Under the pieces are notes generated by a model. That model saw only the letters and a list, made by a program, of their open reading frames with translations. It made no database searches and was not told where the DNA came from. Made by a program: the position numbers and the translations under genes. Of a stretch of DNA of 64,000 nucleotides, positions 22,015 through 56,151 are shown piece after piece. How positions within the stretch are numbered: the first letter of the stretch is position 1; each line of letters begins with the position of its first letter. Origin of the DNA: Amoebophrya sp. A120 (taxonomy: Eukaryota; Protista; Dinoflagellata); contig CAJINV010000010.1 of the NCBI GenBank assembly GCA_905178155.1, positions 645,851 through 709,850 of the forward strand, read 5' to 3'.

Positions 22015-23307
22015 TCAAAATAGCCCACCGAACCAGGTCCCGTCATCGGACCCCTCCGGCTGCTCGTTTGGATTCACCCCCTGTTTCTTCACAGCCACGC
22101 TCCCACTATTGGGCTTGCTTTCCAGCTCCATTCCTATCTCCCCCTCGATCTCATCTATGAGACTTTCAGCCTTGCTTTCCCGGGCTCGCTCCCTCATCGC
22201 GAAGAACGAACTACCTCGCAATGGCGGGATCTTGGCGTGCCCCTGCTTCCCAATCGCGCCGGTGTGGAAGCTTTGCATTTGTTGAGCTGAGATATTAGCA
22301 GCAGTCGAGGCGGTAGTGGACGACGGCGGTCTCCTGTTCATCGCGTTAGAGTTTGTTCCTCGTCTACGTATCAACTGTAAAAATGTCTGGGTCTGGAAGA
22401 ATCCAACTTGTCATGCTGATTTTGGATTCTAAAAAAATCTGTATTGCATGAGCAGCAAAGAGAGTCCAGGTTTTGCTACACGGAAAGAGCATTTGTCATG
22501 CGGTGTAGGCATCAGGAAGGCCTCACAAAATCTGTGATGCTAGGGCATGCATCACAGCCATCAGGAGTCATGCAAAATGTGCATGACAAACCTCGCAATC
22601 TTCCAGACCCAGACATTTTTACATTTGATACTACGGCTATTTCTATCAGTGCTCCGTCTACTCTTCCGCCCAATCGCCACGCCCAAGGACTCTTCGGCTA
22701 GTTTCAGGCTGCTGCGGGCTTTCGCGAAATCCCTTTCGTAGTCGATAATATCTTCTTCGGAAGATGAAATCTGCTTTGTCAGTTTGGCGCGGTCGTTTTG
22801 CAGTTGTTCCTGCTGCTGGTGGTACACTAGGGCAGAAGTATCTTTACCCTTACTACCCAAGAAACCACGGTCCTCGTCTCCGCGAATGGAAGATGATCTT
22901 CTGTTAATCGATATCGACCCGCCGTTCAGACTATACCCACCTACTGAGCTGCGAAACGGCCCGCGGCCGCTGTTGTCTTTCCTCTTTCCCTTGGAACTAG
23001 CAGTGGTGGCTTTAGGTGACTTTTTCTTCCTTTCTTGTTCTCCTGTCGCCTCACTAGGTCTATCTTGCAGGTACTTTTCGACATTTTCGTATCTTTCTGG
23101 AAACAACACTCTATGCGTTTTCCGAATCACCGACGCAGCTGGGTGGGGGTGGAGGTCTTCTAAGTTATTTTCGTGAATATCGTAATTTTTATCCCGGTCG
23201 TCGTGGAGTAGAGTGGAGGCTTTGGAGACGGAGGGGGAATTCGATTTCGCCCGCGCTTTCTCGTTTTCCTTCTCTTTATCCATGTAATCCCTTATTTCAT
23301 CCAGCAT
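22015..23307 (-). CDS. Hypothetical charged/coiled-coil protein
   Basis: ORFs 22561-23307 and 22015-22374 join in frame after removing 22369-22630 plus the ctacg DR. Confidence 0.6.
22369..22630. mobile_element. Introner-like element, family A
   Basis: DR ctacg/ctacg. Confidence 0.9.
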
Positions 23308-23352
23308 CTTGGCGGAACGCTCGCCTGTTTTTTAGTAGATGGATCTGCATTC

Positions 23353-29703: not shown

Positions 29704-32700
29704 CTATTTCCTGGTCATGTGCAGGTCAAACCAGTCGCTCCCCTTCAATATCTCCCGCATCCAGTCTATGTCAAACAGCAGCTCGTCCCGCGTCCGCCAC
29801 CTTGTCCCGAACTTTGCATCCACCGCTAATTCCCCAAACAACCCCGCGCCACAGGGTTCATCTCGGTACAAGCAGATTTTCGGCGCGTAGATGTACTGCC
29901 GCGCAATTTTGAACCTGTTGTAGCCCAACGCTTCCGCCGTGGGAAATACCGACCGCGCGAACGCCCGCATGCTGTCTATCTCAATCGAGATGTACTTCGG
30001 CGGGTCTATTCTAGCGTACACCGGCGGCAAATTGTCCCGTGGCTGCACTTTCCTCACGTAAAACCCGCCTTGCGTCTCCTCGTAAAGGGAAAACTTGTTG
30101 ATGTCCCCAATCTTCTTGTTGTTCTCGTACCAGAGGTTCGTTTTGTACTTGAACAGTTCTTCCTGTTTTTGCTTTCTCTCCGCCTCTGATAATTTACCTC
30201 TATCTTCCTCCGCTGTTTCACTTGCAGAAGTTGTTCCTCCACCCCGCGCGGCCAATTCCGCGGAGAATTCGTTGTGCGCCCTACTATTCCCGCCGAACAA
30301 CAATTTGGGGTCGTTTTCGTCGATATATTTCCCGTCCGCCCGTAGTTCCCGACTGCTGGATATGCCTTGCACATGTGTCTGTGTCTGGAAACTTGTGACG
30401 AGACGCAAGGAACTGCTAAGCATGACAAGTTTTTTGCATGGTCCTGAGTCGCGTATTCCGCATGAGAAACTGCGTTTTTGCACGACAGGGAGCAGGAGCT
30501 CTTCGCGGCCACGCAATACAGAGTGCAGAGTCATGCCAGACTAGCATGACAAATCTCGGAATCTCCCAGACCCAGACATATTTGCAGTTGATACTTGATA
30601 AAACGGCCCGGGATTTTTCCACCCAAATTCCGTCGGTTAGGATCGACCTCAGGCAGTCCTTGCTGTTCTCCTCCACGTCGATTTTCAGGAAATACGGCAT
30701 GCCGAACTGCTTCACCAAGCTCGCGCAGGACAAGCTCGGAATCCACTGCGATTTTATCCGGACGTTCCGTCGATGCTGCGTCGTGCCGTCGGAAACGAAC
30801 ATCGTCCGCCAAAACATCTCGTCGTTATTCACCAATTTGCTCGTCTCCGCCCGGGGGGAGAGTTGCACGAACGTGCTATTCCGGTACAGATCCTCTATTG
30901 AAAGGAAAAATCCCCCCTCCCCGTATTGAAAAGGTATGACTTCGAAAATTTGCGTTGCTGATTTGAGGTCACAAATCATATTTGTCTTGCAAGAAGACAA
31001 GGGCAGGAACTTTCGCCCCATTATGGAAGCGATTTGTCATGCTCCTGGGTCTAAAGGGGAGCCGTTTGCCATGCTGAACAACTAGACACATACGCCCCTA
31101 TCTAGCCTGGAGATCTGCCCGCAATGCGTCTCTGCAATACAAAGCTGATTTGTGTACGCAAATCAGCAACAGAAATTTCCATTTTGATATGGGGAGGGGG
31201 GGTTTTTCATAGTGATATCCTCCGCTTTTTCTTCAGAGACAATGGCGTAGTTCAGTAAAATCAATTGCCCGGTGGACAATTCTTTTTCAAACTGCTGCCG
31301 GGCACGGAATATGCATTGCAAAAGTGGTATCGCACTCGTATAAGTGCATTACAAATTTCCTTAGCATGAGAGATAACATTTGTCATGCGGATTCATCTTA
31401 AGAAAGAAATTTGCAATGCATTACTGCAATACTTTTACACAGGATACGGAAAATGCTATTCGGATTCGACTCGACGGTGACGACGTGGAAGCCGGAGTGC
31501 AGGTAGAACATGGTGTCTGCGCCGAGGCTATGCATTGCAAATTTTATGTCTGGGTCTGATCCAACTTTCGCATGACACCGCAGGTTTAGAATGCGAGTCT
31601 TGGCATCACAAGCTTCGCGTAGGGGTAGGCTCCTCAAAACTGCCAATCCTGCATGAGAAATGTCACCTTCAAGAGGTAACCCGAAAAATCGAGTGACTTT
31701 ATTTGCTACTCATACAATGCAGATCTTCATCTTTGTGTCAACGAGACCTAGCATTACAGACTTGGACTCTTCGGCCAGATCAAAGTAGACAGATTTGCGA
31801 TGCATAGAGGCCCATACCAACGTCTAAGATGAGGTAATCGTGCTTTTCCTTCAAATCTTTATCCGGGGAAAGACACCCATTCCCATCCATTTTTTGTATC
31901 ACAAATACTGGAGCTTATGCATGTTCTGAATGACAAATTGGATGGGGATGGGTGTTTTTTCTTGAATAATCTTCGGCGGATTCTTCCAACTGGAGATCGG
32001 CATCTTGCTGGCCTTCTTCCTCGTCCTCTTGGTCTACTGCATCAGATGTTGATGAAGCGCTCTTTGAAGAAGTAGAAGATGCTGCACCGGTGGCAGCAGC
32101 AGAGCCTGCTGCGCTGCCCTTCTGACGGTCTATCATTCCTGCAGGTATCGAGGTGTCGGTCTCGGTCTCGCTGTGTTCAGAAGTTGTAGGAATTGCGTCG
32201 TCGCAGAAATCATACAGAGCTTCCTCATCTTCACTCCCCTTTTCGTCAGTTTGCTCTTCCCGCACCAGAAATTCCGTCTCTTCCGCAAACACCTCGGAAA
32301 ACCGTACCGCGTCCTTCACGTGGAAAACGAGTTTTTCCATGTTCCAAAACGCGGAGCGCTTCGTTTGCTTCACCCAGTTGCCCAGCCAAATGGAACTGTC
32401 AAAGTCAAAGTGCATGACGTGGGCAAGTTTGTCGTAGATCCCGTTAATCGGAACGGCGTACAGAGGCTCGAGTATGTTCAAACTCTGGTCTACCGGATAC
32501 ACTAAGTTCGGGTTTGTTTTCAAAGTTGCCTTTCTATTTCTCGTGTTCGCTTTCTTGGTTTGGTAGAGACCCACCTCCCTAGAAGAGGATCTCGATGCAA
32601 CGGACGAGGATGCCTTAGCAATTGCACTTTTTCCGGCTCTACTACCTTTGAAAACTTTATCGTCGGCACTGCTGCCACGACTGTCCCTTATTCTCTTCCT

Positions 32701-35700
32701 ACAGCTTGCAATTTTATTGCTTTCGACTCTCGTAGTTCCCTTCCCTTTTCCTTTTCTTCCGTCGCGATCGCTATCTTTTGTGCCTTTATTTCTCCTCTTT
32801 TTCCGCCACTTCTTCTTTTGCTTTTTTCCTTTTTCTGTATCTCTGCTATGAAAATCGCCGAAATCGATTCCCTTCTTCGCGACCATCTCTTCCGGCGGTC
32901 CGTTCGTGCCAGGTATCACCGCCCACAAAATGAACCCGGTAATGGACAAATACCGGTAGCCGAGCTGGAAAAAGTTCTGCATCAAACTTACCGGAAATAA
33001 CATCTGCTTCGGGTCCCGGAGGGTTGTTTCCGCGATTGCCGTACTGCCGTCGGGTTCGTCTTCGTCTTCGTCAGAAGAAGTTGATGCTGCAATGGTTTTC
33101 GCGTTGCTGATTCCAGCGTGAAGGTCAATGTCAGTTTTCCTCTTTTTCCTCTCCGCCTCTATCTCCTGCTTCAGTCGCAGTCTCTTCAACTCCAGCTGCC
33201 CCTTGATCTTCATATTTGCGATGGAATGGACAAAATGCGTCTTCACGTCGGGTGTTGAAGCTGTATCGCTGGATTCTGGTTCTTCGGAACCTCCATCGTC
33301 AGAAGCCGCTTGCTCTACCACCCCACTGTCGCTGTTTCCGTCGTGTTCCACCTCCATTTCTACCAGGCCAGCACCCGCTCCCTCCGTGTCGTTCTTTACC
33401 CCGAACAGCGTCATGCTGCCGTCGCCACTGAAAAATTGCGACTTCGTGTGCTCTATCAAATGTAAAAATGTCTGGGTCTGGAAGAGTGTAGACTTGTCAT
33501 GCAGATTTGCCATGACCCATGAGGTCTGGAATGCGGGACTTAGCATGACAGACTCTGCGAGGCCTCTGCCATGCCTATTCTGCATGAGAAACTTCGTCCC
33601 AACTTGATCAAAAGTGGGCAGCTTTTGGCACTCATGCAACACAGACTTTTGCATGCTTCAGATTTACCATGACAGGTTGCAATCTTCCAGACCCAGACAT
33701 TTTTGCAATTCATATGCTCCGTGATACTCTGCCCCCGGTCGTCCACGGCGAGTCGTTGTCTGCCGCGCCCTATGAAGTGCAAATATGTCTGGGACTGGAA
33801 GAATCATGCAACTTGTGATGCTTGTCTCACATGCCTTTTGAATCTTTAATGCGCGGACAGGAATAAAGCCTCTTTCCTGTCATGCAAAAACGCGGCTTGC
33901 CATGCGGATAGCGAAACACAAAGGACCCCATAAACTTGTCATGCGTGGCTGCGTATTGCAGTGCGCTGACCATTCACACAGTAGCATCACAAGTTTTCGG
34001 ACCCAGGAGGAGACATAATCTGCAATGCATACGCCCGAATTCCCCGAGGTTTTCCACGTAGTACTTCCCGTAGGAGAAGTATCCTAAAGAAAAAAGTGGT
34101 ACAGATAAACACTCTGACGGAAGGCAAGCAAGACAGACAACCTCTGTCATGCAGGAAACGCTTGACAGCCGCATTTCATTTGTGTTTTCCCTTATAGTCT
34201 GCGCATCACAGGTTTTCTTTGCCATGTCGAGCAACTTTGTGATGCAGAAACTCCAACACGTGTGTTGTAACTGTATTAACACTTTTATTTTCCTGTGATA
34301 AAAAGAGGTTTAGCATGCCAGCTCTCAGCCCGGAGAGCTGGATGTACCCGGCGAAGGATCTGGATGAGATCACGAGGAACATCCTATTACCACGAAAAAT
34401 GCCCCCAACCCAGAACTTGGCGGCATTTATATTTTGCGAACCTTTTCAATGGAAACGCTCCCCGTCTTGCATGTATCAGCATCAAAAATCTTGCATGCTA
34501 GAAAGCTCAAATCTGTGCAGCTGCAAAGGAGCCCAACAGCAGCCGGATCTGTTATGCAAAAGATGCCTTGCGCGTCTAGATTCTGCATCAGAAAGGCTCG
34601 TAGTCCTTTCATGCAACACAAAAAGCTTTCATCTGGAAACTTTGCATGAGAAACTTTTGCAAGTTCCGGGGTGGAGGCATTTTTCATTGTCATGCATCCG
34701 GTAGAGAAGCTGCTGGGGAGTTACTTTGAAGAAGGAAAAAAAGTCCGTGTTGAAACGGTAGGGAGTGGCCCTTTCGAAGGAGGAAAATGAGTGGTCTAGA
34801 TCTACTTCGGAGGGATGTACTGAAGACGAAGTGGTAGTAGTTGCACTTGTTCTGTTCAGAGCCAGCAGTTCGTTCCACGCGGGGTGTTTCGAAAACTCGC
34901 TCATCACATCGATGTCCTCTTGCACGCAGCACGGCCAAGCCGCCACTTCCTGGTTATCGGAAGGGCGTTTCGGAACGGTGCCGGAGTTGAGCAGCTTCGG
35001 GTACAGTTTTTTTTGGACCGTGCTTCGTTTGGAGAGAGAAGAAGTGACGGGAGCTGCAGTATCATCTGGATCATTGCTTTTGCTATCCCCCGGTGTAACA
35101 ACTGTTGATCGCGGCACTAGCATTCCCGCGCGACAGATTTTCAAGACGTCGAAGACCATCCGGACTGCTTGCGGAATGATCGGCATCAGGGCAGATTCTG
35201 TGGTGGAGACGAACGCGGATAGAATCAACGCGGAGAAGCAGAGTCTGCTTATAACCCGCTCAAACGTTACCATCTCAAACGTTACAATAGAATCTGGAAA
35301 TCTGTGATGCAAGAACTGCATGACCTAGCCTGCTCCCATAGGATCATTGCGCATGACAAGTTTCGGAGTCCCAAACCGCGCTAGAATCTGGCGAAATTTG
35401 TATTGCGAAAAGCTCAGTCCTCTATACGGTCCTCATGCTCTTCATGCAATACAAAATCCAGACTCTATTGTAACGTTTGAGATTGTAACGTTTGAGCAGG
35501 TCAGACTATTCTGCACGTTTTTCTGGATTTCCTTCTCCCCATACCGGTTCAACACGACCTCCAACGACGCTAGACTCTGCCACTCCCGCCAGTCCGGAAA
35601 GAAATGCACCCAGTGGGCGAGGATGTACTGGGATTTCTCGTACAACTTCGTGATCACCGTGTTGTTCTTTTGGGGCGTGGAATCCGGGTTCCAGATCTGA

Positions 35701-36038
35701 ATGTGCTGGTGCCACAGCTCGAAAAATTCCAAGTACATCGGGTTTTCAAAGCACTGCTGCCCGAACAACGGACAGGGGTCGGTTGTTTCGCGAGTTATTG
35801 CGTCGTCAACATGATCGTCGTCGTCGTCGTCGTTGTTACTAGCAGCTGCGTCCTCCGCCGGCAGCGGCTCTACTGCGCCGGCTTCCTCTGCGCGCGCAAC
35901 CGGAACCACGACGTCCAGAACACCACTATTGCAGCTGAGTTGAAAACCCCCGATCCAAACGACCCACCGGTAGTAAACGAAAAGCAGCAACGAAAGGGCG
36001 TTTTTGTGCACGCTAGAGCGATAACGACGGGTTGGCAT
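29704..36038 (-). CDS. Large protein with hydrophobic N-terminus and a C-terminal FkbM-family SAM-dependent methyltransferase domain; interrupted by 10 TIR elements
   Basis: After excision it reads DYLILDVGMGLGADTMFYLHSGFHVVTVESNP...LILLNYAI...PYFLKIDVEE, and the frame runs from 36038 to 29704. Confidence 0.75.
30361..30593. mobile_element. Introner-like element, family A
   Basis: DR ctgga/cttga. Confidence 0.85.
30896..31217. mobile_element. Introner-like element, family G
   Basis: TIR with aaaaatcccccctcccc; DR tcctc/tcctc. Confidence 0.9.
31310..31446. mobile_element. Introner-like element, family D
   Basis: DR cggaa/cggaa. Confidence 0.9.
31529..31806. mobile_element. Introner-like element, diverged family A
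   Basis: DR gaggc/gaggc; splits the DVGMGLGAD motif. Confidence 0.9.
31860..31968. mobile_element. Smallest introner-like element (109 bp)
   Basis: TIR acacccattcccatcca / tggatggggatgggtgt; DR atctt/atctt. Confidence 0.85.
33454..33714. mobile_element. Introner-like element, family A
   Basis: DR tgctc/tgctc; near-identical to 3004-3264. Confidence 0.9.
33771..34031. mobile_element. Introner-like element, family A variant
   Basis: DR cgccc/cgccc. Confidence 0.9.
34080..34300. mobile_element. Introner-like element, family B
   Basis: Homologous to 48860-49080; DR agaag/aaaag. Confidence 0.85.
34385..34694. mobile_element. Introner-like element, family C
   Basis: TIR gaaaaatgccccc; DR catcc/catcc. 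Confidence 0.9.
35250..35505. mobile_element. Introner-like element, singleton family
   Basis: TIR gctcaaacgttaccatctcaaacgttacaataga; diverged DR ctgct/ctatt. Confidence 0.85.
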
Positions 36039-36554
36039 GGTGGCGATTTGTGGTATTGAAGATGGCCACGTGTTTGTTCTGTCTAAAAGTCCTAGCGACT
36101 GAACTCCATTTTACGGACGAGAAACAACACGAGCAACGTACCTACACACTGCCGCTCGCTACTGCCCGATCAGAATTGCAGTTGTACCAGACTCGAAGAA
36201 GATAACTAGCACTTTATACTTTTACGAATTTTTCCGGGGAGTGATCCCGACTTGCCGCTCTTGCTGGGCGTAGGCAGGAAACACAGAATACCATTGGGAA
36301 AACAACGAACCCTCTCTGTGGTTCCCGAGGCGGAGAGGCCTACAAAAGCCTTTGATGCATGGACTCATCAACGCGATTTTGTGATTCGAAGTCAATGTAG
36401 GTGAAATGTAAACATTTGGTTAGCGTGACGAAAAAAGAAGCCAATTGGAAATGGTAATTTTCGAAAAAGAAGACAAGTAAACAGCTACAGATAGTGTATG
36501 TGCAAAGAATAAAGGAAGAGCTATCATGATGCTCGAATAAAGAGAAGGCTATAA

Positions 36555-41000: not shown

Positions 41001-41730
41001 CAGCGGAGCCAGAAAGCGGGTGTTTTTCTTGCTGGGAGGTTTCGGAGAGGGTTCTTCCGTCGTAGCTCGCTGCAACTCCGGCTCCGCTGCTTCCGGGTCA
41101 AGGATGAAAAGTATCACGGAGAAAAAGAAAGGAAGAGCGAGCTTAGTATGAGTGTGGAATTCAATTGCTATGTGGATTTGGAATTCTTCAGGAAAAAAAA
41201 GGCTAGTTTTCAGGCTTGCTAGTAGGTACTCCTCTAGAGTAGACTACGACCAAGGCGAGAAATAAATCCATCACGACATGCAAACACACTCAAGAGGGCC
41301 AGCTCAATTTTATCTTTTCCGTGTGATACCTCGCACGGCCTGGACACGAGTGGTGCCGCCAAGAGCCAAAAGTCCAAATCCGATCGCGTGGGAGCGTATC
41401 AACTGTAAAAATGTCTGGGTCTGGAAGATTGCCAGGTTTGTCATGCATATTTTGAATGACCCACGACGTCTGTGATGCATGCCCTAGCATCACAGATTTT
41501 TAGAGCACTTTGAGATGCCTCTACCGCATGAGAAATGCCCTCTCCACGTAGCACAAACTGGAGTCCTTTTGCTGGTCATGAAATACAAATTTTTTTAGAA
41601 TCCACAGTCAGCATTACAAGTTTAGAATCTTCCAGACCCAGACATTTTTACATTTGATAGAGCGAAAAAGCTGCGTGCGGCTCCGGTTGCTCGCCGCGAT
41701 CGCGAAGGTAGCGGTTGATGATGTTGCCAT
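38095..41730 (-). CDS. Atypical kinase (PI3/4K-, LepB- or HipA-like motifs) with hydrophobic N-terminus, multi-exon
   Basis: AVFKPID (Lys), AMSELVAGSIF (Glu), LSDPDGHFGNIG (DxHxxN, formed after excising 38904-39177) and RRFDVGWAF. Confidence 0.6.
38904..39177. mobile_element. Introner-like element, family A variant
   Basis: DR atccg/atccg; splits the kinase DxHxxN loop. Confidence 0.9.
41397..41659. mobile_element. Introner-like element, family A
   Basis: DR gagcg/gagcg; inverted relative to 22369-22630. Confidence 0.9.
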
Positions 41731-43167
41731 GTTTGCGCTTTCGTGTCGTTTACGTTTTTAGTCTACTTCCTTAGTCGTGAATTTGAGAGTTTATGATAAT
41801 TTCCGGCGCTGTGCAGAGCTCTTTTTCACTTGATGTAAAACTAAAAGGAAACGGTAGTGATAAGTTCGTGCAAAACAAATTTTGGTTTTAGTGTTTTTGT
41901 CAGAATGCTGTTTCGTCTGTGGAATAATTAGGCTAGAGAACTGTGGCGCATGGAAAGGGATTTCAAAACTGAAGTCTAGACGGCCGTCTTCCAGATCCTC
42001 TCAAAGAGTCATCAACACGAGGACGAGACTATAACTACGGAACCGAAGTTACGACGTGGCTATGGCATTATAGCACGTGATACTATAGAATCACAACCGA
42101 AACACTGCAATCAATCGTCGCAACAGACACTACATACTTTACCTCCGAGGTTTGTAGTCCTTCATCTGTGTGAGGAAAGAAAGGACGTATAGGCAGCAAC
42201 CGATATTTTTCGTAATATCAGCACGCGAACAGGAGAAGTTACAACAACCGACTAGTAGACTCAGCAAGCCGATGAAACTGGTAGGAAATATAAGCAGATC
42301 ATTGCGGACCGATCCTGTCGTCAAAGAGCCTTGTGATTCTGTACCCGACAGGGAAAGTTTGTTTTTCTATTGGCTAAAGGCGGGTAAAACATCAAGCAAC
42401 AAACAGCTTAACCTCCTCTTCTTTTTGCAGAAGTCCGAAGTGACGCACAGAACTAAATGCACAATTGCCCTTCGTGCGGTACTTGTCATGGAAAAGATAA
42501 GGAAAAGCGGTCTACAACTTGTGCAGGAAAATAAAACCTGGACGAAACTACTGCACCAGCTGCACGAGTTTGCAATCATTATCGCACGACCTAAAACTTC
42601 TACCGTAGTAGTTTTTCTTCCGTTATTTTTTCCGATTCGGTCACCGTGCCGCCGCTTCAGCCCCGGCCCGCGCTAATGCTGCTGGAAAACTGATTTTCAG
42701 TCTGTTTATAGATTCTTCACCGAGGAAATTCATGGCAAAAGGCGCGTTGCCTTTAGCTTTAGTTGTCCTTTTGTTCATCGCATAATAAATAGATACAAGA
42801 GCATGCAACTCTTACCCATTGCAGCCCTCTCTACTACTTACTTCTCTGTCATGACGTCAAAAACGTTGTGGATGCTTATTCGAGGAGTTCGACGAAAATG
42901 ATGATCGACGCACAGTTTACGAGTCGATACATAAACTGCAAAGGACTTTGTGATGTCGGCTGCCTGCTGCTGGTACTCGGCCGCCTTTTTCTGCATCTGC
43001 TTCTCGTGCGCAGTCAGGTTCTCGCCGTATCAAAGGGAGATAGTAAACTTCTGCCTGCTTCTTGCACTTCGTCAACTACAGAGCTGCCAGCATATCATGA
43101 CTTACGATTTATCTCACGAGTGAATTATATCATGCTTTGCGAAAAACAAACCTTGTGGAAGCAGGAA

Positions 43168-45367
43168 TCAATGGAAGCTGCAAAAGTTAAAGTACAAAGT
43201 TTTCTTATGTAATGCAAAAGCATCGTACTAGTAGTAATCGCATTACAAATTTGCTCAGCATGACAAATGGAATTTCTCATGCTGATTTACCTTGAAAAAA
43301 AGATTTGTCATGCACAAATGCGATTACTACGAGTACGATACTTTTGCACAGGATATTTCTCCAGACGATACGAAGATCAACCAGTTCCCGCCTGTGATCC
43401 ACGGTTTCTGTTTTTCGATCTATCCTGAGTGAAAACGCCCCCACCCCATAGTGAAGATGGGCAATCTGCTACACAAATCAACCAGCATTGGCTGTTGCGC
43501 ACGACAAGTTTGGCCCCGCAGTGTCATCCTGTTTAGCTAGTTATAGTAGCATTACAGATCTAGCATATTATGCTGATTGGAGCATCACAAGTTCCAAACC
43601 ACGACTAGAAAATGCTTCTCATGTTGGGGCTCTGCATGAGAAGCATTTTGAGCATGCAGATCTGCATGACGACTATAGGGTTGGAACGTTTTTACTCAGG
43701 ATACGATCCCGATCGCCTTCGCCGCTACCTCGTACTCCTGTCCGCTATGGATGTGTCAGGATCGAAATCGTCAAAATTGAACAAATAGTTTGTCATGCAT
43801 AAAACCGATACCAGTCGGAAGCCCACTTATCAGGCGGCGCATGACAAATTTTCCGAGCATCGGAATCCAATTTGTCATGCTGTTCGAGCACAGAAGACTG
43901 CTTTTGTCATGCTAGTTTAGTAGCTCCATTTCAAACCCTAAACAGGCCAACAATCGGCCTCACTTGCCATCCCGGCAAGACAGGCACTTCATGCCTTGCA
44001 TTTTGTGCATCGCAAACTATTTCAACTTTGACGATTTCAATCCTGACGCTTCCATATCCGCGCTCCCGGTAGTACGCCGCCTGCAGCTCCGCTGTGACCA
44101 GATCGGCGTGAAAGGGCTCTATCTTCTTTCCAATCTCCTCTTCCGCCGACATATCTCCCGCAGTGGACCCATTTTTCGCATATGAACTGCAAAAGTTAAA
44201 GTATCGTACTAGTATAAATTGCATTACAAATTAGCGCAGCATTACGAATTGAATTTGTAATGCTGATTTTCGTTGAGAACGAAATTTGTAATGCATAAAT
44301 GCAATAATTACTACGAGTACGATGCTTCAGCATTGCATATCGCACTCCGCGCGGCGATTTTCTTCTCCGCGGCGGCGCGAATCGCGGCCAGAGCTTCCTG
44401 CGCCCCCGCAGCCGCACTTTCCGTGATTTTTACGTTGATGTCGCTCAGCGTTTTTTCGTATCCTGTGTAAAAACGTCCCCACCACAGAGTTGTGATGCAA
44501 ATGCGCAATGACAGGAGCATCTGTAATGCGCATACCCATGAGAGGCATTTCCAATCGAGTTTTGGCATTTGTGATGCTGTAAACAGCATGAGAAAGTGGT
44601 TTTATCACGCGGATTCCCTTGCTAACCAGCACAACGCTGCAGAGGAAAACTTATCATGCACAACTCCCAAAATTTGCAGATTTACCGACTTGACTATGGG
44701 GTGGGGACGTTTTTGCTCACCATATTTCGTACTCCGTCACCAGCGCCCGGGCCTTAGCCGCTGCCTTGGCGGCAGCTGCTTTCGCCTCCGCGCTTTCCTT
44801 TGCTACAGCGAGGGATCAAAATGAAAAGTCCCCCCTCCCCATATCGAACTGGAAATCTGTGATGCAGGATCTGTGTACACAAATCGGATTTGTCTTGCGG
44901 TAGAGGACTGCAGACAGATGCAAAGCCCGGAACGGGGTGGCTTGGGGTAGGTACTTAGCATGGCAGACGTCTGCCCTAGTAGCGTAGCAGCATTACAAAC
45001 CGCCTGCGAAATGCAGCGGAAGCCCTGGCTTTGCTCTCTTGCAAGACAGAATCGATTCGTGAGCACAAATCAGCATCACAAATTTTGAAAAGCACGCCTT
45101 TTCGATATGGGGAGGGGGGATTTTTCCTCACAATACGAGGTTTTTGGTCACCAGTTCCACGATCTGTTTCGCTTTTGCCTTGGCATTGCCGTTGTCTGCT
45201 GCGGTGGAGGAAATAGACGAGAAAAGTGACAAAGCCGAGGACGTCGGGAGGTTTGAAAGGTAGAAAAACCAAATCGCAAAATATCTGCAGACGATGGAGT
45301 GGATAAGAGGCGCGGCGGACGGTCTGCCACGCCGCTGCGCTACGTCGACAGTATTTCGTCCGGACAT
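43168..45367 (-). CDS. Ala-rich helical hypothetical protein split by six TIR elements
   Basis: Six successive excisions give one frame: VTKNLAVAKE, TEYEKTL, ARSAKNG, RERGQEY, AIGIEKQ, SSGETLYFNFCSFH*. Confidence 0.75.
43206..43355. mobile_element. Introner-like element, family D
   Basis: DR tttct/tttct. Confidence 0.9.
43421..43703. mobile_element. Introner-like element, family E
   Basis: TIR tatcctgagtgaaaacg; DR cgatc/cgatc. Confidence 0.9.
43746..44056. mobile_element. Introner-like element, family F
   Basis: TIR tatggatgtgtcaggatcgaaatcgtcaaa; DR tccgc/tccgc. Confidence 0.9.
44181..44339. mobile_element. Introner-like element, family D
   Basis: DR tcgca/tcgca. Confidence 0.9.
44459..44724. 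mobile_element. Introner-like element, family E
   Basis: DR tttcg/tttcg. Confidence 0.9.
44814..45135. mobile_element. Introner-like element, family G
   Basis: DR cgagg/cgagg. Confidence 0.9.
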
Positions 45368-46534: not shown

Positions 46535-49500
46535 TCACGCTGCCGTAGGGGCCACCTCCCCGTTGAGCATGCGATCGTCGGTCCAGTCAAAATAGCCGAC
46601 GCCTTTGCCGCCTTTCGCGAAGACTTTCACCGAATTGAAAACAAAATTGGTTCCGTAGTGCTCGGTGGGCATCAGCAATCCAACCTGGTCGTCCCATCCG
46701 GGGTAGATGCTTTTCGCATCCTTTTTCCCGTAATTCGCATCTTTCACCAGAGCATTGCACGCATCTATCCCCTGGTCGTTTCCGTTAGCCTGGAACTCGG
46801 TGCCGGCCCAGGACCCGCAAAAGGCAGTGTTGATGATGAAGGTTTGCGTGCGAAAGTGCTCGCTGGCTTCGCTGCAATGAGCCAACGGAAAGACCACGTA
46901 GGGCTTCAAACTTTGCAGCTTGGTCTCCCAGAACTCAGGTTGGGCGGACTCCTCCGCGCTGATGGCGTTGGCGTCTTTGCGAGGAATCCAGTAAAAATCC
47001 GTCTTGTCCTCCCCCAGCTTCATGATGTGAATGCCACCCTGCTCCTTGTTGAATTCGATCCCGTTCGGAATGCCCTTGGCCAGGACCCCGCAGCCGTCGT
47101 ACCCCTCGCAATTTCGCATTTTCAGGTACAGCGTCATGTAGTCGGGGCACTGGTTGTCCGGGAAGTACCAGTGCTGCTCGTTTGCTGGATCCGGTCTACA
47201 CTGCTCGTACACGTCGTCCCCTACCTCATCCTCGGTGGGATTCAGCCTGTTCGTTTTGGTCCGGAACATGTTGCAGTTCCCGACGCAAGGCTTCCCCTCA
47301 GGGCAAGCACCCTCGTCCCGTCGCCAGGGGCCAAACTCGGTGTGCAGGGTGGTGGGCTATCAAATTGAAAAGCGGGGCCCTAGCTGTACTACACAGAACT
47401 TGGTGGAAGCATTAGCATTTGTCTTTGTTGTATAATATCATGCCGAACCGACCGCGCAACCACTGCCGTCCAGGACTAGTGAGGGTCGTTCATGCGGCAA
47501 CGCTCTCGAAAAACCCCAACGCCACCCAGGACCAGCAATTAATTAAATTTCATTTTCTTTCTATTAGTCGCCGATGTAAACATGCCGATGCCGTCTTGAT
47601 GTCTTTTCAATGCAAGCAATTGATAAAGTTTTCACCCTGAAGAGCAAAAATTTGTGTTGCGAAATAGAGGCTCAACACCAGTGGAAACTGTTCATAACGA
47701 GGATGCTTCTCACGATTGAAAATTCTGGATCAGAAAAAGAACTCAACATAGTCGGTTCTGCCCTCCAACACGACAAAAGAATCTTCTCTTTTCGAAACTT
47801 CGCCACAGATATTAATTGAGTATTTCCACCTTCTGCGGGCGGGGCACTAGCACTTTTCAACAAGATATGATCATCTCCTTGTTGGGAAACCCGTGCACGT
47901 GCTCCATCATGTCAAACTCCCCCGACTCCGGCCAGTGAGCATGCCCAAACTGCCACCCGTCCTCGGCCCAATACCCCTGCCTCGGGACCCAAAACTCTTC
48001 CCCGATCGGCACGACCCCGCCCTTGTGCGCGGTCCAGTAAGCGGGCCACGAGCCATCGATCGCGGGCATGCGCTCCACGTCGACGACAAAAATCGAACCG
48101 TACGTGAAGCCAAACTTGCTGTGCATGCGAATTGCGTACCGGTTGCCATTTTCGTCGCTCCCTACGTCCGGGCTTTTGCGGTCATCGGGCGCCAAGGCCG
48201 GCCTGCCTTTCGCGAAGTCGATGCTCACCTTGTTGTCGTTGGTTTGCGTGATCAGGGTGTCTCTTCGGTTCCAGCCCTCCTGGTAGTTAACGGCCCCCTG
48301 TGTGGGGTCGCCGAGTCTGTCCCAGGGGACAAAACAGTCCAGGAAAGCGGCCCGATCGCTCCCCGGACAGTTTAGCGCCAACTGCAGCTGCGGTGACGCG
48401 GAGTTTTGTTCCTCGTTAGACACGTTTACTTCCTCGGACGGCTTTTCCTCGGAAACACTCAGCGGATCCGTTGGTGGCACTTCTGGAGCTGGATCCGTTG
48501 GTGGCACTTCTGGAGCTACGCTGATGACAGTGCACAACCCCCTCCCTCACTTGTCGGGCATGAGCAGCAATAGAAACACCACCAGACCTCAACCTCATGG
48601 AGCCTGTGCATGACAAGTTGTTCCTGCGCCGACTGAAGTACTTACTGTTCTGGCTACATCAAGAACTTCCGGGATTTGTCATGCCAACTGTGCCAAATGA
48701 ACGAAGAAACTGCAACTGGCTCTGGCTTCAGCATTTTGCATGACAAACAAGGGGGACGTCGAGTTGTGCAATCGGATAACGCGGGTCTGATTCCGGGCGC
48801 CGTTCTTGGTCGTCTCCTCGGCTTCCTCCGGCGCCTGGCAGTACTCACAGGCCGGCTCCTATCCTGAGAAAAAAGTGTTACAGTTGCACACTCTGATGGA
48901 AGACAAGCAAGACAGACGACCTCTGCCATGCAGGAAATGCTTGGCAGCCTCATTTCATTCGTGTTCTTTTCCCTTTAGACTCTGCGCATCACAGGTTGTT
49001 TTTGCCATGATGTCGAGCAACTTTGTGATGCAGAAATTCCAACAAATGTGTAACTGCAACACTTCATTTTTCCTGTGATAGCTCCACCGGATGACTGACG
49101 TCCCTGGTCCCCACAGGCTCCCCAGACCGCAGCTCGGTAGATGTTCTCGTAGCCCCAGCGGCGAGTTGCAGTATCCTGAGTAAAAGCGTCCCCACCCCAT
49201 AGTTCTTGTCATGCAGATTTGCAGTCACAGGAAGATTTGTAATGTGCATCCCCGTGAGAGGCACTTATTTCAGTCGTGTTTTGGACTTTGTAATGCTGTA
49301 AACAGGATGATTAGCTGGCTTTGTGATGCGGCTGCACTTGTGAAACTGCACCAAAATACAGAGAGGAACTTGTCATGCGCATACTCCCAAAACTTCTCGG
49401 CTTGTGTTGCGAGATCCCCGTCTTGAGTCTGGGGTCGTGGGGACGTTTTTACTCAGGATATGCAGCGACGAAGCTTTAACATTTTCTGCGGTGGACAGAG

Positions 49501-50763: not shown

Positions 50764-53700
50764 TCAGACCCCATCCGGAAATAACGCCGGATATTTGTCT
50801 TTCCAATCCCGCTGGGGCTCTTCGCTGCCATCAAGCATGCGGTCGTCCGCCCAGTGGTAGAAACTTTCGCCCAAACCACCCCCCTCGATTCTATCACACG
50901 GAAAATAACCAGAAGGGCTAGCGTACCAAATAAATGCCTGGATCGATACAATTACAACTGTATCGATACAACAAAACTTGCTCGAAATCGTCGCTCTTGC
51001 GACGTCACACTGTTTCTTTTTTCCAACATCTTCACCTTTCATGCGGACATAACCAACTCAACAATTCCCGCCTAAATCCTATCTTCACGATCTCCATCCT
51101 TGGGACTTCAGAATACAGTACGATAGTAGTACGCGCGGCTGATAGTTTTCGCGCAGAACAAGGCGACAAGATGACTTTCATGCACAATAAATTTCGAGTA
51201 CGTTTGTGCACGCCTGATAGATTACAATTACGTCAAGTATTGTACGCTAGCACCTTACGAAAAAATTGTTCCAATGCATAGGTCCACTTTTTCGAGAAGA
51301 TTTTGATCGAGTTGAAGAGGAAATTCGTCCCGATCCCCTGGTCTGGCTCCCCTTCCTCACTGTCCCACAAAACCTCCCCGAGGTCCGCAAATTTGCTCTC
51401 CTGGGTCTTATAGCCGTAGGCAGCGTCCTTCATCAAAGCATTGCAGTTCTCCCGCCACTTCGTGGCCTTCCAGTGTTCTCTTGCCTCATCTGTAGTGAGA
51501 TCTGACGGAACCGGGGGATGATCGTTCTCTCGAGGACCCCAGTTGTACGTAAACCCCGCCCACTCCCCGCAGAACGCCGTATTCAGGACCAGCGTCTGCG
51601 TGCGAAACAGTTGCTGCGCGTTGCAGTTTTTGTTTTTATTCACGGGAAACACCACGTAGGGGGTCAGGGGTCGGAGTTTTTCGGTCCAAAACCAGCCCTG
51701 CTTGGTTTTTTCCTCGGTGAAAACCTCTGGGTCCACGTCGTTTCGGGGTATGAAGTAAAACTTCTTCACTTCGTCTTCTTCTAATTGCATTAAATGGATT
51801 CCCCCCCGTTGCTTGTTAAATGGCACGCCGTTCGGCACGTCTCGGACGTACGCGCCGCAGCCCAGATTGCCGTAGCAGCTGGTCTCCTTCAGGAATATTG
51901 TGAGGAAAAATCTCCCCATATCGAAAAGGAATCTGTGATGCTGATTTGTGACCACAAATCAGCTTTGTCTTGCGCACAAGGCAAACGGCAGCCATGTGGC
52001 GCATGGTACAGTCAGTCTGTCATACGTTTGCGCCTATGTCTGACTTGTTTCTCATGCTCAGCTGCTAGCCGGACGCGTACTTACCCAAACGGGCTTAGAT
52101 TATGTCGACAAGATGAAGCTGTTGCTGCAATACAAAGGTCATTTGTTTACACAAATACAGCAACACAGGTTGTCTTTTGAGTATGGGGTGGGGGCTTTTC
52201 TCACTTTGATAAGAAACGTCGGGAGTTTACACCCTTCCGTCATGTTCCACAGCGCGTGGTGGTTTGCCTTGCACTCCTCGTTCGCGTCTGTTACTTCTTG
52301 AGAAGACGGCTCGGAATCCCCGAGAGTCCCTCCGCGGGAGGGCCACACCTGGCAGCTGTGGCTGTTGTAGCTGGTGGCGCCGCTGTGGACGGTGGTGATC
52401 ATTTCTGTGTTGACGAAGCCGTGCAGGTGCTATCAAATGCAAAAGTGTCTGGGTCTGGAAGATTATGAGACTTGCCATGCATGTTTCGCGTGGCCCAGGA
52501 TTGTGTGTGATGCATGCCCTACCATCACAGACTTTTAGAACCCTTCCTGATGCCTACTCCGCATGACAAACGCCCTCCCCGCGTGGCACAAACTGGACTC
52601 CTCTTGCTGGTCATGCAATACAGATCTTTTTAGAGTCCAAAGTTAGCATCACAAGTTCCAACCCTCCAGACCCAGACCCAGATCCATTTTTGCATTTGAT
52701 AGGTGCTCCATCATGTCGAATTCGCCCGATTCCGGCCACCCACTGTGGCCAAACCCGTCACCCGGCTGAAATCCGGTGTCCCACGCGAGCGGCACGATGC
52801 CGCCCTTGTGGGCCGTCCAGTAGGCCGACCAGCTGGCATCGATGGTCGGGATCCGCTCCACATCCACCACGAACAGCGAGCCTGCCCCAACCGCGTACTT
52901 GGTGTGCATGCGAATCGCGGGGCGATGGTTGTTCCAGTCGTCGTTCGCGTGCGTAGTGATCTTGCCCTTGTGAAAATCGACACTGACTTGTTTTTTCATC
53001 ACCGCATTTTCATCCGGATTGTCTCGCAGCGTAATCAGGTCGTCCTTCATCTCCCACCCTTTCTTGTAGTCCACGGCCCCGCCGGTGGGATCGCCGACTT
53101 TGTCCCACGGGACAAAACAGTCCAAAAACGCGTCTAGATCGTCGCCGGGGCAGCTGAGCGCCAACCGGTAGTTGGTGGAATCCGGATTTTCAAACGGCCA
53201 GGTGGTGGTAGAAGTCGTACTAGAGGTTGTGGATGTGGACAAGGTTGAATCTGCGCCGTTTGAATTTACCATCACGCACTCGAACGGGTACTGCCCGGGG
53301 TCGGAAATCCGGTCGGCCAATGGGAAAATTGACGCACGGCTACACACATCCACTTCTTCACTGGCAGCAGATGAAACGTCAGCAGCTTGTTGTGCGCCCT
53401 TTTTGCAGCAGGCCGCCTCGTACTGAGCATGCGCAGTGCCCGCCGCGGGCGTTGTCCCCTCGGGGTAGCAGGCCGCGCAGCTCCCCGGGGTGCCGTTGCA
53501 GCCGGGGAGGCAGGAGATGGCGGTCGGCGGGAGGGGTGTGGTGTCCGAGGCAAACAGGTTTTTCGTGAAGGCCTGCGGGTGTTTCTTGTTCAAAACCCAG
53601 GCCGGCAAAGCGACGCAAGAGTGGAAAGAAGTCTCGTTTCCACCGTACGCGAGCACTTCTGCCGGGACGGTCTGCTCGACCGGCAGCCCGGGGATGGTGA

Positions 53701-56151
53701 GCGCTTGGCACTCGGGGTACTTTTCCGCGTCGGCGTTATCAAAGTGAAAAATGCCCCCACCCCCGAACTAGGGAGCATTTGTATTGCAAACCTTTCCAAA
53801 TGAAACACTCGCCCTCTTGCATCTATCAGCATCACAGATTTCCGATCGTGAATACTAGCAAAAATTTGCATTGCAATAGACGCCAGCAAGAGTGGCCCTT
53901 GTCATGCAAGCGATGCGATACACGCCTAGACTCTGCATCCGAAAGATAAGATTCATACTTCTTTCATGCATGAGCATGACAAAAAGTTTTCATTTGGAAA
54001 CTTCGCATCACAAATTTTATGCAATTTCAGGGGTGGGGGGCATTTTTCACTGTAATATGCGTAGGGAACGGTTTCCGTTTCCCGGTCGTACTTGCAACAC
54101 GCACTCTTGTAGGACCCGGGCGCCAGGCCCTGTATCAAATGCAAAAATGTCTGGGTCTGGAGGGATTCGAACTTGTGATGCGCATTTCACAACACGCAGA
54201 AATCTGTCATGCGTAGGCAGCAAAAGCCGCCCACTTCCTGTCACCAAAGTGGGGGATTTGTCATGCGGATTAGGCATTGCGGAACCGTCTCGAAAACTGT
54301 GATGCTAAAGCGTGCATGCCAGACCTTCTGTGTCATGCAAAAACACCATGGCAAAAATCTCCGTTCTTCCAGACCCAGACACTTCTGCATTTGATACCCT
54401 GTGGCAGTTCGTCATTTCCATCTTCTCCGACGAGGCACCAGTTCGCACACTGGCTCCCCGTCCCGGCCAGGCGAAACTGCATCCCACACGGCTCAAAGCA
54501 GTCCATCGGTCTGCCTATCCTGAGTAAAAACGTCCCCATAGCAGAGTCAAGATGGGGATCTCGCAACACAAATCGAGAAGTTTTGGGAGTCAAGCATGAC
54601 AAGTTCCTCTCTGTAGTGTAGTGCAGTTTAGCAAGTACAGCCGCAACACAAATCCATCTAGTCGTCCTGTTTACAGCATTACAAAGTTCAAAACACGATG
54701 GGAAATGCCTCTTATGGGGATGCGCATTACAAATCTTCCTGTAACTGCAAGTCTGCATGACAACTCTGGGGTGGGGACGTTTTTACACAGGATACTGCCG
54801 GTAGTTGGTTCTTCCGGACACCCACCTTGGGCCTCGCTGACGCAACGGCATCAAAAGGAAACATCCCCCCTCCCCATATTGCAACGGAAATTTCTGCTGC
54901 TGGATTTGTGTACACAAATCGGCTTTGTCTTGCAGTATAGGACTGCAGGCAGATACAAAGCCTAGACGGGGCTGGCCAGAGGTGGGCGCTCAGCATGGCA
55001 GACGTCTACCCTGTTGGCGCAGCAGCATTACAAATCGCCTGCGTAAAGCGGCGAAAGCTCTGGCTTTGCTCTCTTGCAACACAGACCTCATTTGTGACCA
55101 CAAATCAGCATCACAAATTTTCAAAAGGATGCCTTTTCGATATGGGGAGGGGAGATTTTTCCTTTTGATAAACGGACGTCGATGGTCCACTCCAGCGCAA
55201 GGGCGGGCGGTTGCAGTGGAGATGATGTAGTTGCCGCCTCCGTTGAAGATGTCGTGGCGTCGTCCTCATCTTCTGCCGTGGTTGTAGACGTCGTGGTAGT
55301 CGTAATTCCAATTTCCTCAGAAGTCGTCGCTTCTTCTTCATCTCCCCCGCAGCCGACACAGTTTTCGCACGCGCCCTGCACCGGCACCTGATTGGAGGCA
55401 GTGAGGACACCGCTGAGCGGCGTCAAGCTCGTGCTCGGGGCGTCAAGCTCCGAGGAGGAACTGAGCGAAGAAGGTGGGGGCGGCTGCACAGGAGGAGAAC
55501 CCTCTTGGTTCTCGACGAGAGCGCGAGGTGGAGACTGCGTCGTTCTAATATCCTTGCTCGCCATATTAATAACGTTCAAAGAAGTAAAAGAACTACTAGA
55601 GCTAGACCTAGTATCTGAAGCATTTTTATCAGACGACAAGGTGGATGTTGCAGGAGCACGGAGAATGTGTATCAAATGTAAAAATGTCTGGGTCTGGAAG
55701 AGTGCATGTTTGTCATGCTTGTCTGGCATGACTCTTAAATCTGTCATGCACGTTACCCAAGAGCTCCATTTTTCTGTGATGCAGAAACGCAGTTTGTCAT
55801 GCAGAATAGGCAACACCTAGAAGCTCAGAAACTTGTCATGCTGAGCCAGCATTTGTGGCCTCATCATGAAACGCCACCCAGCATCACAAGTTTCCAGACC
55901 CAGACAATTTTACATTTGATAATGCGCCTCTTCGCACGATTGTAGTGCTTCTTGGCTGCTGTTGATGTAGTTTTCATCGAAACCAGCCTGCTGCGCTTTT
56001 TCTGTTGCTGTGGTCCTCGTGTACCACTTTTTTCCCTCACGGAGAGGCCAGCGACGGGGCGCGCTGCGAAAATAAGGCTAACGTGTAAGAACACCACCTC
56101 CATGATCATGGCCGAAGTGGTGAGGACGCGTCGAAGACCGCTGAACTTCAT
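50764..56151 (-). CDS. GH16 paralogue 2 with signal-peptide-like start, Thr/Ser linkers and Cys-rich modules
   Basis: WSAYWT, WPESGEFDMMEHLHG and QTLVLNTAFCGEWAG; interrupted by seven or eight TIR elements. Confidence 0.85.
50892..51280. mobile_element. Possible old, degenerate introner-like element
   Basis: tat...ata ends, weak TIR, DR gattc/ggtcc; excision is in frame (KWTEGGGL). Confidence 0.5.
51896..52211. mobile_element. Introner-like element, family G
   Basis: DR aggaa/agaaa; excision gives PTFLKETSC. Confidence 0.85.
52431..52701. mobile_element. Introner-like element, family A
   Basis: DR ggtgc/ggtgc; excision gives MEHLHGF. Confidence 0.9.
53737..54057. mobile_element. Introner-like element, family C
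   Basis: DR ggcgt/tgcgt. Confidence 0.9.
54133..54396. mobile_element. Introner-like element, family A
   Basis: DR ccctg/ccctg. Confidence 0.9.
54516..54794. mobile_element. Introner-like element, family E
   Basis: DR ctgcc/ctgcc; inverted relative to 49172-49460. Confidence 0.9.
54849..55170. mobile_element. Introner-like element, family G
   Basis: DR aacgg/aacgg. Confidence 0.9.
55670..55921. mobile_element. Introner-like element, family A
   Basis: DR atgtg/atgcg. Confidence 0.9.

What the first reader, a model, noticed from the sequence alone, without database searches (positions are those of the whole stretch)
22369..55170. Removal appears orientation-independent: the same families sit in both orientations in same-strand genes
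Seen: 22369-22630 vs 41397-41659, 49172-49460 vs 54516-54794, and 30896-31217 vs 44814-45135 are reverse-complement homologues, yet all host genes are on the minus strand. Known: spliceosomal donor, branch and acceptor signals are directional. Inference: recognition relies on the symmetric TIR stem plus DR, or occurs at the DNA level, rather than on a linear splice code.
Basis: partly seen in the sequence, partly recalled or inferred. Interest (0 to 1): 0.75.

Follow-up and report, generated by a model that had tools for sequence, protein, structure and literature searches.

The report
Flip-proof transposon introns of Amoebophrya
Small transposon copies, matching the published intron elements of the marine parasite Amoebophrya, sit inside genes facing either way and are missing from likely-RNA assemblies in both directions; because their two ends read the same when flipped, the cell likely cuts them out of the RNA at a fixed offset from those ends, and neither a hairpin requirement nor removal from DNA is shown.

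Summary
Observation confirmed. The three pairs are reverse-complement homologues, and all six hosts are minus-strand genes. They belong to 41 TAT...ATA elements with 5-bp target duplications that match the published Amoebophrya A120 introners. Five families occur both ways in the window; in a second assembly the split is 101:90. Likely-RNA contigs lack 17 of 22 elements in the stretch laid, including both orientations of one family within one transcript, while DNA-like contigs keep them. Seven junctions with mismatched duplications fit one cut register set by transcript direction: one base before TAT, four after ATA. GT-AG is not used. But duplication identity is not needed, DNA-level removal is disfavoured, and a terminal inverted repeat shows the same linear motif either way round, so orientation independence cannot separate stem from linear code. 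G.U-wobble and folding tests gave no significant support for a required stem. Best model: a relaxed spliceosome reading the element ends (0.55); rival, a stem-measuring enzyme (0.3). Both-way introners are published for other algae with near-canonical sites. The scan found this before on other DNA of this genome.

The parts
22369..22630 (-). Family A introner, orientation -1, DR CGTAG/CGTAG (sense); single element in a 349-aa ORF (23331-22018)
   Evidence: retention puts a stop inside the element; no RNA lay
41397..41659 (-). Family A introner, orientation +1, in a 245-aa ORF (41757-40533)
   Evidence: absent from X3 record 9
49172..49460 (-). Family G introner, orientation -1, in a GH16-like gene (49762-46538)
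   Evidence: X3 record 10 reaches 49760 at depth 14.7 but depth at 49203 is 4.38; 576-letter arithmetic
54516..54794 (-). Family G introner, orientation +1, in a 985-aa GH16-like gene (56175-50767)
   Evidence: X3 depth 0 at 54664; removal compatible with record 12 but not shown
30896..31217 (-). Family C introner, orientation +1, one of 10 in a 1322-aa ORF (36110-29707)
   Evidence: no RNA lay
44814..45135 (-). Family C introner, orientation -1; 3' end ATC instead of ATA; in a 278-aa ORF (45388-42841)
   Evidence: absent from X3 record 10 and X6 record 17
43421..43703 (-). Family G introner, orientation +1; same transcript as 44459
   Evidence: absent in both solutions of the 399-letter count
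44459..44724 (-). Family G introner, orientation -1; same transcript as 43421
   Evidence: absent in both solutions of the 399-letter count
43028..43370 (-). Degenerate outer element, DR CTTCG/CGGCG, with a family B copy (43206-43355) nested in its 5' TIR
   Evidence: RNA piece resumes at 43022
43746..44056 (-). Element with TAT ends and a strong stem but no AAAA motif
   Evidence: absent from record 10
44181..44339 (-). Family B introner, orientation -1; terminal stem not predicted
   Evidence: absent in the parsimonious solution for record 10
41112..41328 (-). Single-copy element, DR CGAGG/CTTTT; fixes the 3' cut at +4
   Evidence: record 9: piece starts 41107 after 62 letters; intact in X1 contig 40500-41420
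47358..47867 (-). Single-copy 510-nt element, DR GATCA/GCCCA; empty site in the paralog near 57880
   Evidence: intact in X1 contig 45114-48899
48523..48778 (-). Degenerate element ending ATC, DR CGCGT/AGCGT
   Evidence: RNA piece starts 48517
48860..49080 (-). Family D introner
   Evidence: record 10 arithmetic
50892..51280 (-). Single-copy element, DR GGACC/GAATC; fixes position 4 to the upstream copy; no predicted stem
   Evidence: intact in X1 contig 49438-51959
51896..52211 (-). Distant family C member, orientation +1 (opposite to 44814), DR TTTCT/TTCCT
   Evidence: 113 same vs 79 opposite to 30896; X3 depth 0 inside, piece starts 51890
52431..52701 (-). Family A introner, orientation +1; empty site in the paralog near 57910
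53737..54057 (-). Family E introner, DR ACGCA/ACGCC; fixes position 5 to the downstream copy
   Evidence: record 12 starts 53732
54133..54396 (-). Family A introner, orientation -1
   Evidence: RNA status unresolved
54849..55170 (-). Family C introner, orientation -1, ends ATG
   Evidence: X3 depth 0 at 54882 and 55080
55670..55921 (-). Family A2 introner, orientation -1
   Evidence: no RNA row shown
59728..59880 (-). Family B introner, orientation +1
   Evidence: no RNA row shown
29707..36110 (-). 1322-aa ORF restored by removing 10 elements (30361, 30896, 31310, 31529, 31860, 33454, 33771, 34080, 34385, 35250)
16854..21074 (-). 1193-aa ORF restored by removing 17044, 19510 (A, -1) and 19834 (B, -1)
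77..3589 (-). 1032-aa ORF restored by removing 2157 (B, +1) and 3004 (A, +1)
15463..15612 (-). Family B introner, orientation +1; host frame less certain
38904..39177 (-). Family A2 introner, orientation +1, in a 336-aa ORF
57003..59411 (-). GH16-like paralog without elements at the matching positions (empty-site control, strand anchor)

Best explanation
The elements are non-autonomous TIR transposon copies that stay in the DNA and are missing from likely-RNA contigs in either orientation, and they are likely cut from the pre-mRNA by a relaxed U2-type spliceosome that reads the end motif TAT-N5-G-N-AAAA, which an inverted repeat presents identically whichever way it lands. Shown: both orientations in same-strand genes; removal of element plus exactly 5 nt; no GT-AG. 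Inferred from contig piece bounds: the cut falls 1 nt before TAT and 4 nt after ATA in transcript direction, so the intron starts N-U-A-U and keeps the U at +2 and A at +3 of a spliceosomal donor (consensus recalled). Inferred, untested: that the spliceosome is the enzyme, and that pairing of the arms helps bring the ends together without being strictly required.
For: Both orientations removed in one transcript: 43421 (+1) and 44459 (-1) are absent in both of the 2 of 2048 exon/element combinations that give the 399 letters of X3 record 10; X6, another sample, gives the same 399. Seven of seven junctions with mismatched repeats fit one register (with 32, 55). All 9 predominant A120 non-canonical motifs in Farhat Table S4 have T at +2, as N|TAT predicts. 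T at intron +2 is 216 of 216 on the 5' arm; the mirror base on the 3' arm is 210 of 216 (p 0.03; 0 vs 5 of 205 with good repeats). The one window copy lacking it starts GC. G.U vs A.C in sense-strand TIRs: 23:24 in the window, 99:106 in 216 other copies. Terminal pairs have predicted probability under 0.2 in 6 of 15 RNA-absent copies folded. Farhat found 83 of 89 spliceosomal proteins and U2, U4, U5, U6 but not U1 in A120. Fritillaria shows a U2 spliceosome adapting to TIR introns.
Against: No test here touches the enzyme. G at +1 and AG at the 3' end show no enrichment, which a spliceosome might be expected to favour. No branch signal was found: CATnACA lies on both strands equally (54 vs 53) and is missing from the sense strand of 43421, which is removed. 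43746 lacks the AAAA motif but has a strong stem and is removed. Wobble-making changes are slightly commoner in TIRs (130:102) than interiors (553:534), p 0.17, and G.U exceeds A.C at TIR positions 15-24 (104:74, p 0.03, one of four segments). The +2 asymmetry rests on few copies, two of them perhaps a tandem duplicate. X3 and X6 are only guessed to be RNA, and contigs show no strand.
Confidence: 0.55

Rival explanations
1. A non-spliceosomal endonuclease and ligase, or a transposase-derived RNA-binding factor, recognises the paired TIR stem and cuts at fixed distances (1-nt 5' and 4-nt 3' overhang), as proposed for euglenid nonconventional introns.
For: Fixed offsets with no dinucleotide preference. 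Positions 9-14 are predicted paired in 29 of 37 copies. 43746 is removed with a stem but no AAAA. Weak wobble trend in the inner TIR. Euglenid introns have a similarly lopsided stem, +4/+5 with -7/-6, and leave as circles. U1 was not found in A120.
Against: No wobble excess at TIR positions 1-14 (23:24; 99:106). Stem-breaking transversions are 73 of 126 changes at positions 4-14. Positions 4 and 7 pair in only 124 and 86 of 216. 44181, 50892 and 51896 have no predicted end stem yet are RNA-absent. No sense-strand folding advantage after a composition control (p 0.54).
Confidence: 0.3
2. The elements are excised from DNA (ciliate IES-like) in a transcribed copy of the genome.
For: TIR plus target duplication is a DNA transposon anatomy. 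Only one DNA-like run was laid, it may be the source of the window, and contigs drop rare variants. A strand-symmetric staggered cut left as an unrepaired heteroduplex could mimic transcript polarity (inference).
Against: X1 contigs span 41112, 47358 and 50892 unbroken at depth 24-36, like other unique DNA (20-36), while X3 lacks them. Sticky-end rejoining would need repeat positions 2-4 identical; they are mismatched in removed copies. No separate somatic nucleus is known in this group (recalled).
Confidence: 0.04
3. The skip is template switching across a hairpin between direct repeats, by reverse transcriptase (artefact) or by RNA polymerase.
For: Hairpin plus short direct repeat is the known signature of such jumps (recalled). 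All RNA evidence here is from assembled contigs of runs of unrecorded library type.
Against: Exact junctions occur with repeat identity of 1/5 and 3/5. Each of 39 copies puts a stop codon in its host if kept, and removing 4 or 6 nt instead of 5 breaks 38 and 37 of 39 ORFs, so real mRNAs must lack them. This rules out a pure artefact better than it rules out polymerase jumping.
Confidence: 0.05
4. Each orientation uses its own canonical or cryptic GT/GC-AG sites near the ends, as both-way introners of Polarella and Aureococcus do.
For: Published precedent. 14 of 39 copies start GT under the inferred register.
Against: Only 5 of 38 have any GT/GC..AG pair of the right length; of those only 49172 and 50892 are RNA-supported, and the 50892 pair conflicts with the contig bound. 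7 of 205 are GT..AG in the second assembly.
Confidence: 0.02

Closest known systems
Introner elements among the non-canonical introns of Amoebophrya sp. A120 (Farhat et al. 2021, PMC7789003; seen: abstract, passages, sections 10, 11, 12, 16, supplement parts 2-3 of 5 as text; figures not seen)
   Same: IR starting TAT, seven loose bases, then three or more A; 3-5 nt direct repeats at the boundaries; about 240 nt; co-oriented gene blocks; no dinucleotide rule; hairpin proposed.
   Different: The passages and supplement text seen do not discuss element orientation relative to the gene and call the border position unknown. Here both orientations are shown removed and a single -1/+4 register is inferred.
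Both-orientation introners of Polarella glacialis and Aureococcus (Roy et al. preprint 10.1101/2020.10.14.339549, passages; Huff et al. 2016 known only through that citation, not held)
   Same: TIR/TSD elements that make introns in either orientation.
   Different: They carry or recruit G[ACT]..AG sites from the element or TSD, with an orientation bias in all classes. Here no G or AG is needed and the split is near even (101:90; family C 14:4).
Euglenid nonconventional introns (Milanowski et al. 2014, PMC3935182, passages; review PMC11282704, section 6)
   Same: Non-canonical borders, inverted repeats joining the ends, TSD-like repeats, lopsided stem, unknown enzyme.
   Different: Stem starts at +4 and -6/-7, not +2 and -5; excised as circles; large recent multi-copy families are not described in the passages seen. 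The excised form here is untested.
Fritillaria borealis non-canonical introns (review PMC11282704 section 6; bioRxiv 10.1101/2025.08.15.670264, passages)
   Same: MITE-derived TIR/TSD introns removed by an adapted U2 spliceosome.
   Different: They keep preferred AG-AC/AG-AT ends and a fixed TAC target; here the terminal dinucleotides come from an arbitrary target site.

Membership tests
Amoebophrya A120 introner elements | IR motif starts TAT, about seven variable bases, then three or more A | tested here: met
   37 of 38 5' arms start TAT; positions 11-14 are A in 32-37 of 38
Amoebophrya A120 introner elements | 3-5 nt direct repeat overlapping the exon/intron border | tested here: met
   27 of 41 perfect 5-bp repeats; empty sites in a paralog
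Amoebophrya A120 introner elements | Repeated in families | tested here: met
   7 families in the window; X1 depth thousands of times the unique level; same families in L001-L144
Amoebophrya A120 introner elements | Absent from RNA at non-GT-AG borders | tested here: met
   17 of 22 in 40500-60400 absent from X3 contigs; RNA status of X3 is the tool's guess
Amoebophrya A120 introner elements | Window is from that organism | tested here: inconclusive
   No genome held; identity rests on the match to the published description and co-oriented genes, not on a sequence comparison
Canonical-site both-way introners (Polarella/Aureococcus type) | G[TCA] donor and AG acceptor carried or recruited | tested here: not met
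U2-type spliceosomal introns | GT/GC-AG borders | tested here: not met
   Only U+2 and A+3 kept; no G+1 or AG enrichment
U2-type spliceosomal introns | Branch point, lariat, snRNP dependence | not testable with these tools
   No orientation-proof branch motif found; chemistry needs the bench
Euglenid-type nonconventional introns | Stable stem joining the ends in every copy | tested here: inconclusive
   Predicted in most copies but not in 3 of 15 RNA-absent ones; no wobble bias
Euglenid-type nonconventional introns | Excised as full-length circles | not testable with these tools
   No suitable raw reads; X9 hardly covers the window
Ciliate IES-like DNA elimination | Element absent from a DNA fraction | tested here: not met
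   One DNA-like run keeps three RNA-absent elements at full depth; other stages not sampled

The most novel reading that the evidence does not exclude
Amoebophrya runs a second, non-spliceosomal mRNA splicing system: a ruler that binds the mirror-image transposon ends, possibly a domesticated transposase partner, and cuts 1 nt outside the 5' end and 4 nt outside the 3' end whatever the flanking bases or element orientation, so that almost any new insertion restores the exact original mRNA.
Probability: 0.25. Interest if true: 0.85.

Novelty: new variant of a known kind. Interest (0 to 1): 0.47.

Why it matters
How Amoebophrya removes tens of thousands of non-GT-AG introns is an open question in the paper that described them. 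Two simple rules narrow it: orientation does not matter, and the cut likely sits at -1/+4 in transcript direction. Together they make any insertion mRNA-neutral, which would explain the scale of the invasion. They also turn the 'no clear splice signature' into N-U-A-U at the 5' end, which tells a bench scientist which bases to mutate and where to look for a branch. The elements are published, both-way introners are published for other algae, and the scan has seen these rules on other pieces of this genome, so the gain here is a test of the stem, repeat and DNA-level ideas rather than a discovery.

Tried and rejected
No own genome is held, so no genome-wide count; 144 loci of one other assembly stood in. 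22369 and 30896 have no RNA evidence. No listed run is on record as RNA among the holders; X9 laid only 100 reads, all on element ends. Two patterns seen in the window failed to replicate and are dropped: repeat mismatches by position 1, 9, 6, 4, 2 became 15, 10, 5, 10, 12 in 205 other copies (p 0.28); sense-strand G+T skew 27 of 36 became 108 vs 99. Lower sense-strand folding energy (26 of 37, p 0.025) vanished after a composition control (p 0.54). AG at the 3' end looked enriched against a mirror control (19 vs 6) but not against exon background (p 0.17). CATnACA as a branch site was rejected. Stop-codon tests on mismatched repeats in the loci were uninformative (0 stops in 23 positions, 23 copies dropped for ambiguous frame). 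Pfam found nothing for 8 of 10 proteins. Literature: a search for Amoebophrya + intron + 'both orientations' gave 0 papers; Amoebophrya + introner + orientation gave 6, of which three were searched in the text without a statement on A120 orientation. Huff 2016 is not held; Roy 2023 was seen only as its preprint, and Henriet 2019 only through citing papers. Figures S19-S25 of Farhat 2021 could not be seen and may bear on the register claim.
Full report
Observation. The six coordinates are exact bounds of elements with terminal inverted repeats (TIR) and a perfect 5-bp direct repeat. Each named pair aligns far better reversed. With 35 nt trimmed from each end, interior scores are 247.5, 295 and 180 reversed against 28, -9 and 62 forward, and shuffles average -30 to -41. 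I found 41 whole elements in the window: 39 top-level genic, one nested and one intergenic. Removing element plus 5 nt puts all 39 in 11 minus-strand ORFs of 245-1322 aa. Keeping any one puts a stop inside it (39 of 39); removing 4 or 6 nt breaks 38 and 37 of 39. Two hosts have antisense open frames nearly as long, so strand was checked separately: a leave-one-gene-out codon score ranks the minus frame first for 10 of 11 hosts, including all six named, and an element-free paralog of two hosts matches GH16 glucanases (best E 1.5e-13). That paralog also shows empty sites for 52431 and 47358.

What it is. The anatomy matches the introner elements of Amoebophrya A120: IR starting TAT, seven loose bases, at least three A, 3-5 nt repeats, co-oriented gene blocks (Farhat 2021). 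No genome was held, so the organism is named by this match only. In the window five of seven families hold both orientations, with no inconsistent edge (7, 7, 4, 4 and 3 members). A pattern scan returned 144 loci from one other assembly with the same families, up to 96% identical. A caller that made 28 of 28 correct calls and 25 of 25 correct strand calls in the window found 376 copies there; 216 could be stranded and 160 were dropped. Of the 216, 191 were assigned: 101 one way and 90 the other (A 39:35, A2 20:16, B 12:15, G 9:14, C 14:4, D 3:5, F 3:1, E 1:0). Family C alone is skewed (p 0.03, uncorrected). The strand calls were conditioned on 5-nt removal, so they do not test that rule independently.

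RNA and DNA evidence. One lay covered 40500-60400. X3 and X6 are guessed RNA; X1 behaves as DNA. X3 record 10 has 399 letters where the genome has 2113. The five exons sum to exactly 399 after removing six elements plus 5 nt each; 2 of 2048 exon/element combinations fit, and both lack 43421 (+1) and 44459 (-1), which are opposite members of family G. X6 gives the same 399, leaving the expected 30-base overlap with its neighbour contig. The 576 upstream letters of record 10 end at 49874 if 48523, 48860 and 49172 are removed, the very base where an X6 contig starts; its depth 14.7 is seen at 49760 but not at 49203. Records 9, 11 and 12 lack 41112, 41397, 50892, 51896, 52431 and 53737. Depth bookkeeping matches in four bins, leaving no RNA inside 47358, 50892 or the left part of 43028. 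In all 17 of 22 elements in the stretch are inferred absent; 54133, 54516 and 54849 are compatible but unresolved, and 55670 and 59728 have no row. 22369 and 30896 were not covered. X1 contigs span 41112, 47358 and 50892 unbroken at depth 24-36 and run into the ends of the multi-copy elements. X1 may be the window's own source and contigs drop rare variants.

Cut register. Where the two repeats differ, contig piece bounds show which copy the RNA keeps. Position 1 (48523), positions 2-3 (43028, 47358, 51896) and position 4 (50892, 41112) come from the upstream copy; position 5 (41112, 53737) comes from the downstream copy. With 5-nt removal only one register fits all seven: 1 nt before TAT and 4 nt after ATA, in transcript direction. 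This is read from piece tables, not from reads. It predicts introns starting N-T, and all nine predominant A120 non-canonical motifs in Farhat Table S4 do. I reached this before opening earlier notes; they report the same register on other pieces.

A canonical code is excluded: 5 of 38 have a GT/GC..AG pair of the right length; G at +1 is 60 of 205 against 29.8% background, AG at the end 19 of 205 against 6.9% (p 0.17). The repeat is not a recognition signal: copies with 1/5 and 3/5 identity are removed exactly. DNA-level removal is disfavoured by X1 and by the transcript polarity. The central step of the inference fails on logic: both arms carry the same base-specific motif, so flipping an element leaves the linear end signals unchanged. 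To separate stem from motif I counted sense-strand mismatches that still pair in RNA (G.U) against their mirror (A.C): 23:24 in the window and 99:106 in 216 other copies at positions 1-14; 104:74 at positions 15-24 (p 0.03, one of four segments); copy-specific changes 130:102 in TIRs against 553:534 in interiors (p 0.17). Stem-breaking transversions make up 73 of 126 changes at positions 4-14. Terminal pairs are improbable in 6 of 15 RNA-absent copies folded and no end stem is predicted in 3. Against a pure motif model, 43746 lacks AAAA, pairs well and is removed. One directional trace appears: T at intron +2 is 216 of 216, its mirror base 210 of 216 (p 0.03), or 0 versus 5 of 205 with good repeats; the single window exception starts GC. 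The numbers are small. TIR conservation may also reflect past selection for transposition, and the caller favours well-paired ends.

Mechanism. Most likely (0.55) a relaxed U2-type spliceosome reads the element ends, keeps U+2 and A+3 of the donor, and places the acceptor at a fixed distance from the 3' arm, with pairing as a helper. The spliceosome is nearly complete in A120 with U1 not found, and Fritillaria gives a precedent. This is inference; no branch site was found. A stem-measuring enzyme as proposed for euglenids remains a serious rival (0.3). DNA excision, template switching and cryptic canonical sites are unlikely.

Novelty. The elements are published. Both-orientation introners are published for Polarella and Aureococcus, with near-canonical sites and orientation bias. 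I found no statement on orientation or on a fixed register for A120 in the texts seen; figures were not visible. The scan has noted both points on many other pieces of this genome. Verdict: real, a new variant of a known kind, interest 0.47.

Noticed in passing
window 43028-43370: A family B copy (43206-43355) is inserted inside the 5' TIR of an older element; both are absent from RNA, a stwintron-like nest. Whether they leave in one step or two is unknown.
   Followed up: partly
window 36555-37764: 1.2-kb intergenic element with about 200-bp inverted ends and a TTATA duplication, lacking the AAAA motif; only short ORFs (up to 173 aa stop to stop).
   Followed up: partly
window 4766-9460 (-): 1565-aa GC-rich ORF with Helitron_like_N and PIF1 domains: a Helitron-type transposon in the gene block.
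   Followed up: partly
window 46538-59411 (-): Three tandem GH16-like beta-glucanase paralogs with independent element insertions; candidates for host-wall degradation (inference).
   Followed up: partly
window 35250-35505 and 34385-34694: The two copies with a damaged 5' TAT (TCT, CAT) both have G at intron +1, giving GT and GC starts; in the second assembly 3 of 6 such copies have G.
   Followed up: partly
window 14550-15049 and 26880-28716 (-): Ribosomal protein genes (L7/L12; L3-like from memory, untested) have GT-AG introns and no TIR element, in line with the published depletion of introners in ribosomal genes.
   Followed up: no
elements throughout: The motif CAT[GCT]ACA is about 14 times denser inside elements (108 in 10.8 kb) than outside (38 in 53 kb), on both strands; a possible protein-binding site.
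   Followed up: partly
window 23350-25500: Long intron-like stretch with tandem 250-320 bp and 175 bp duplications and decayed element-like motifs.
   Followed up: no
L001-L144: Family C is skewed 14:4 in orientation while other families are near even; may be chance.
   Followed up: no
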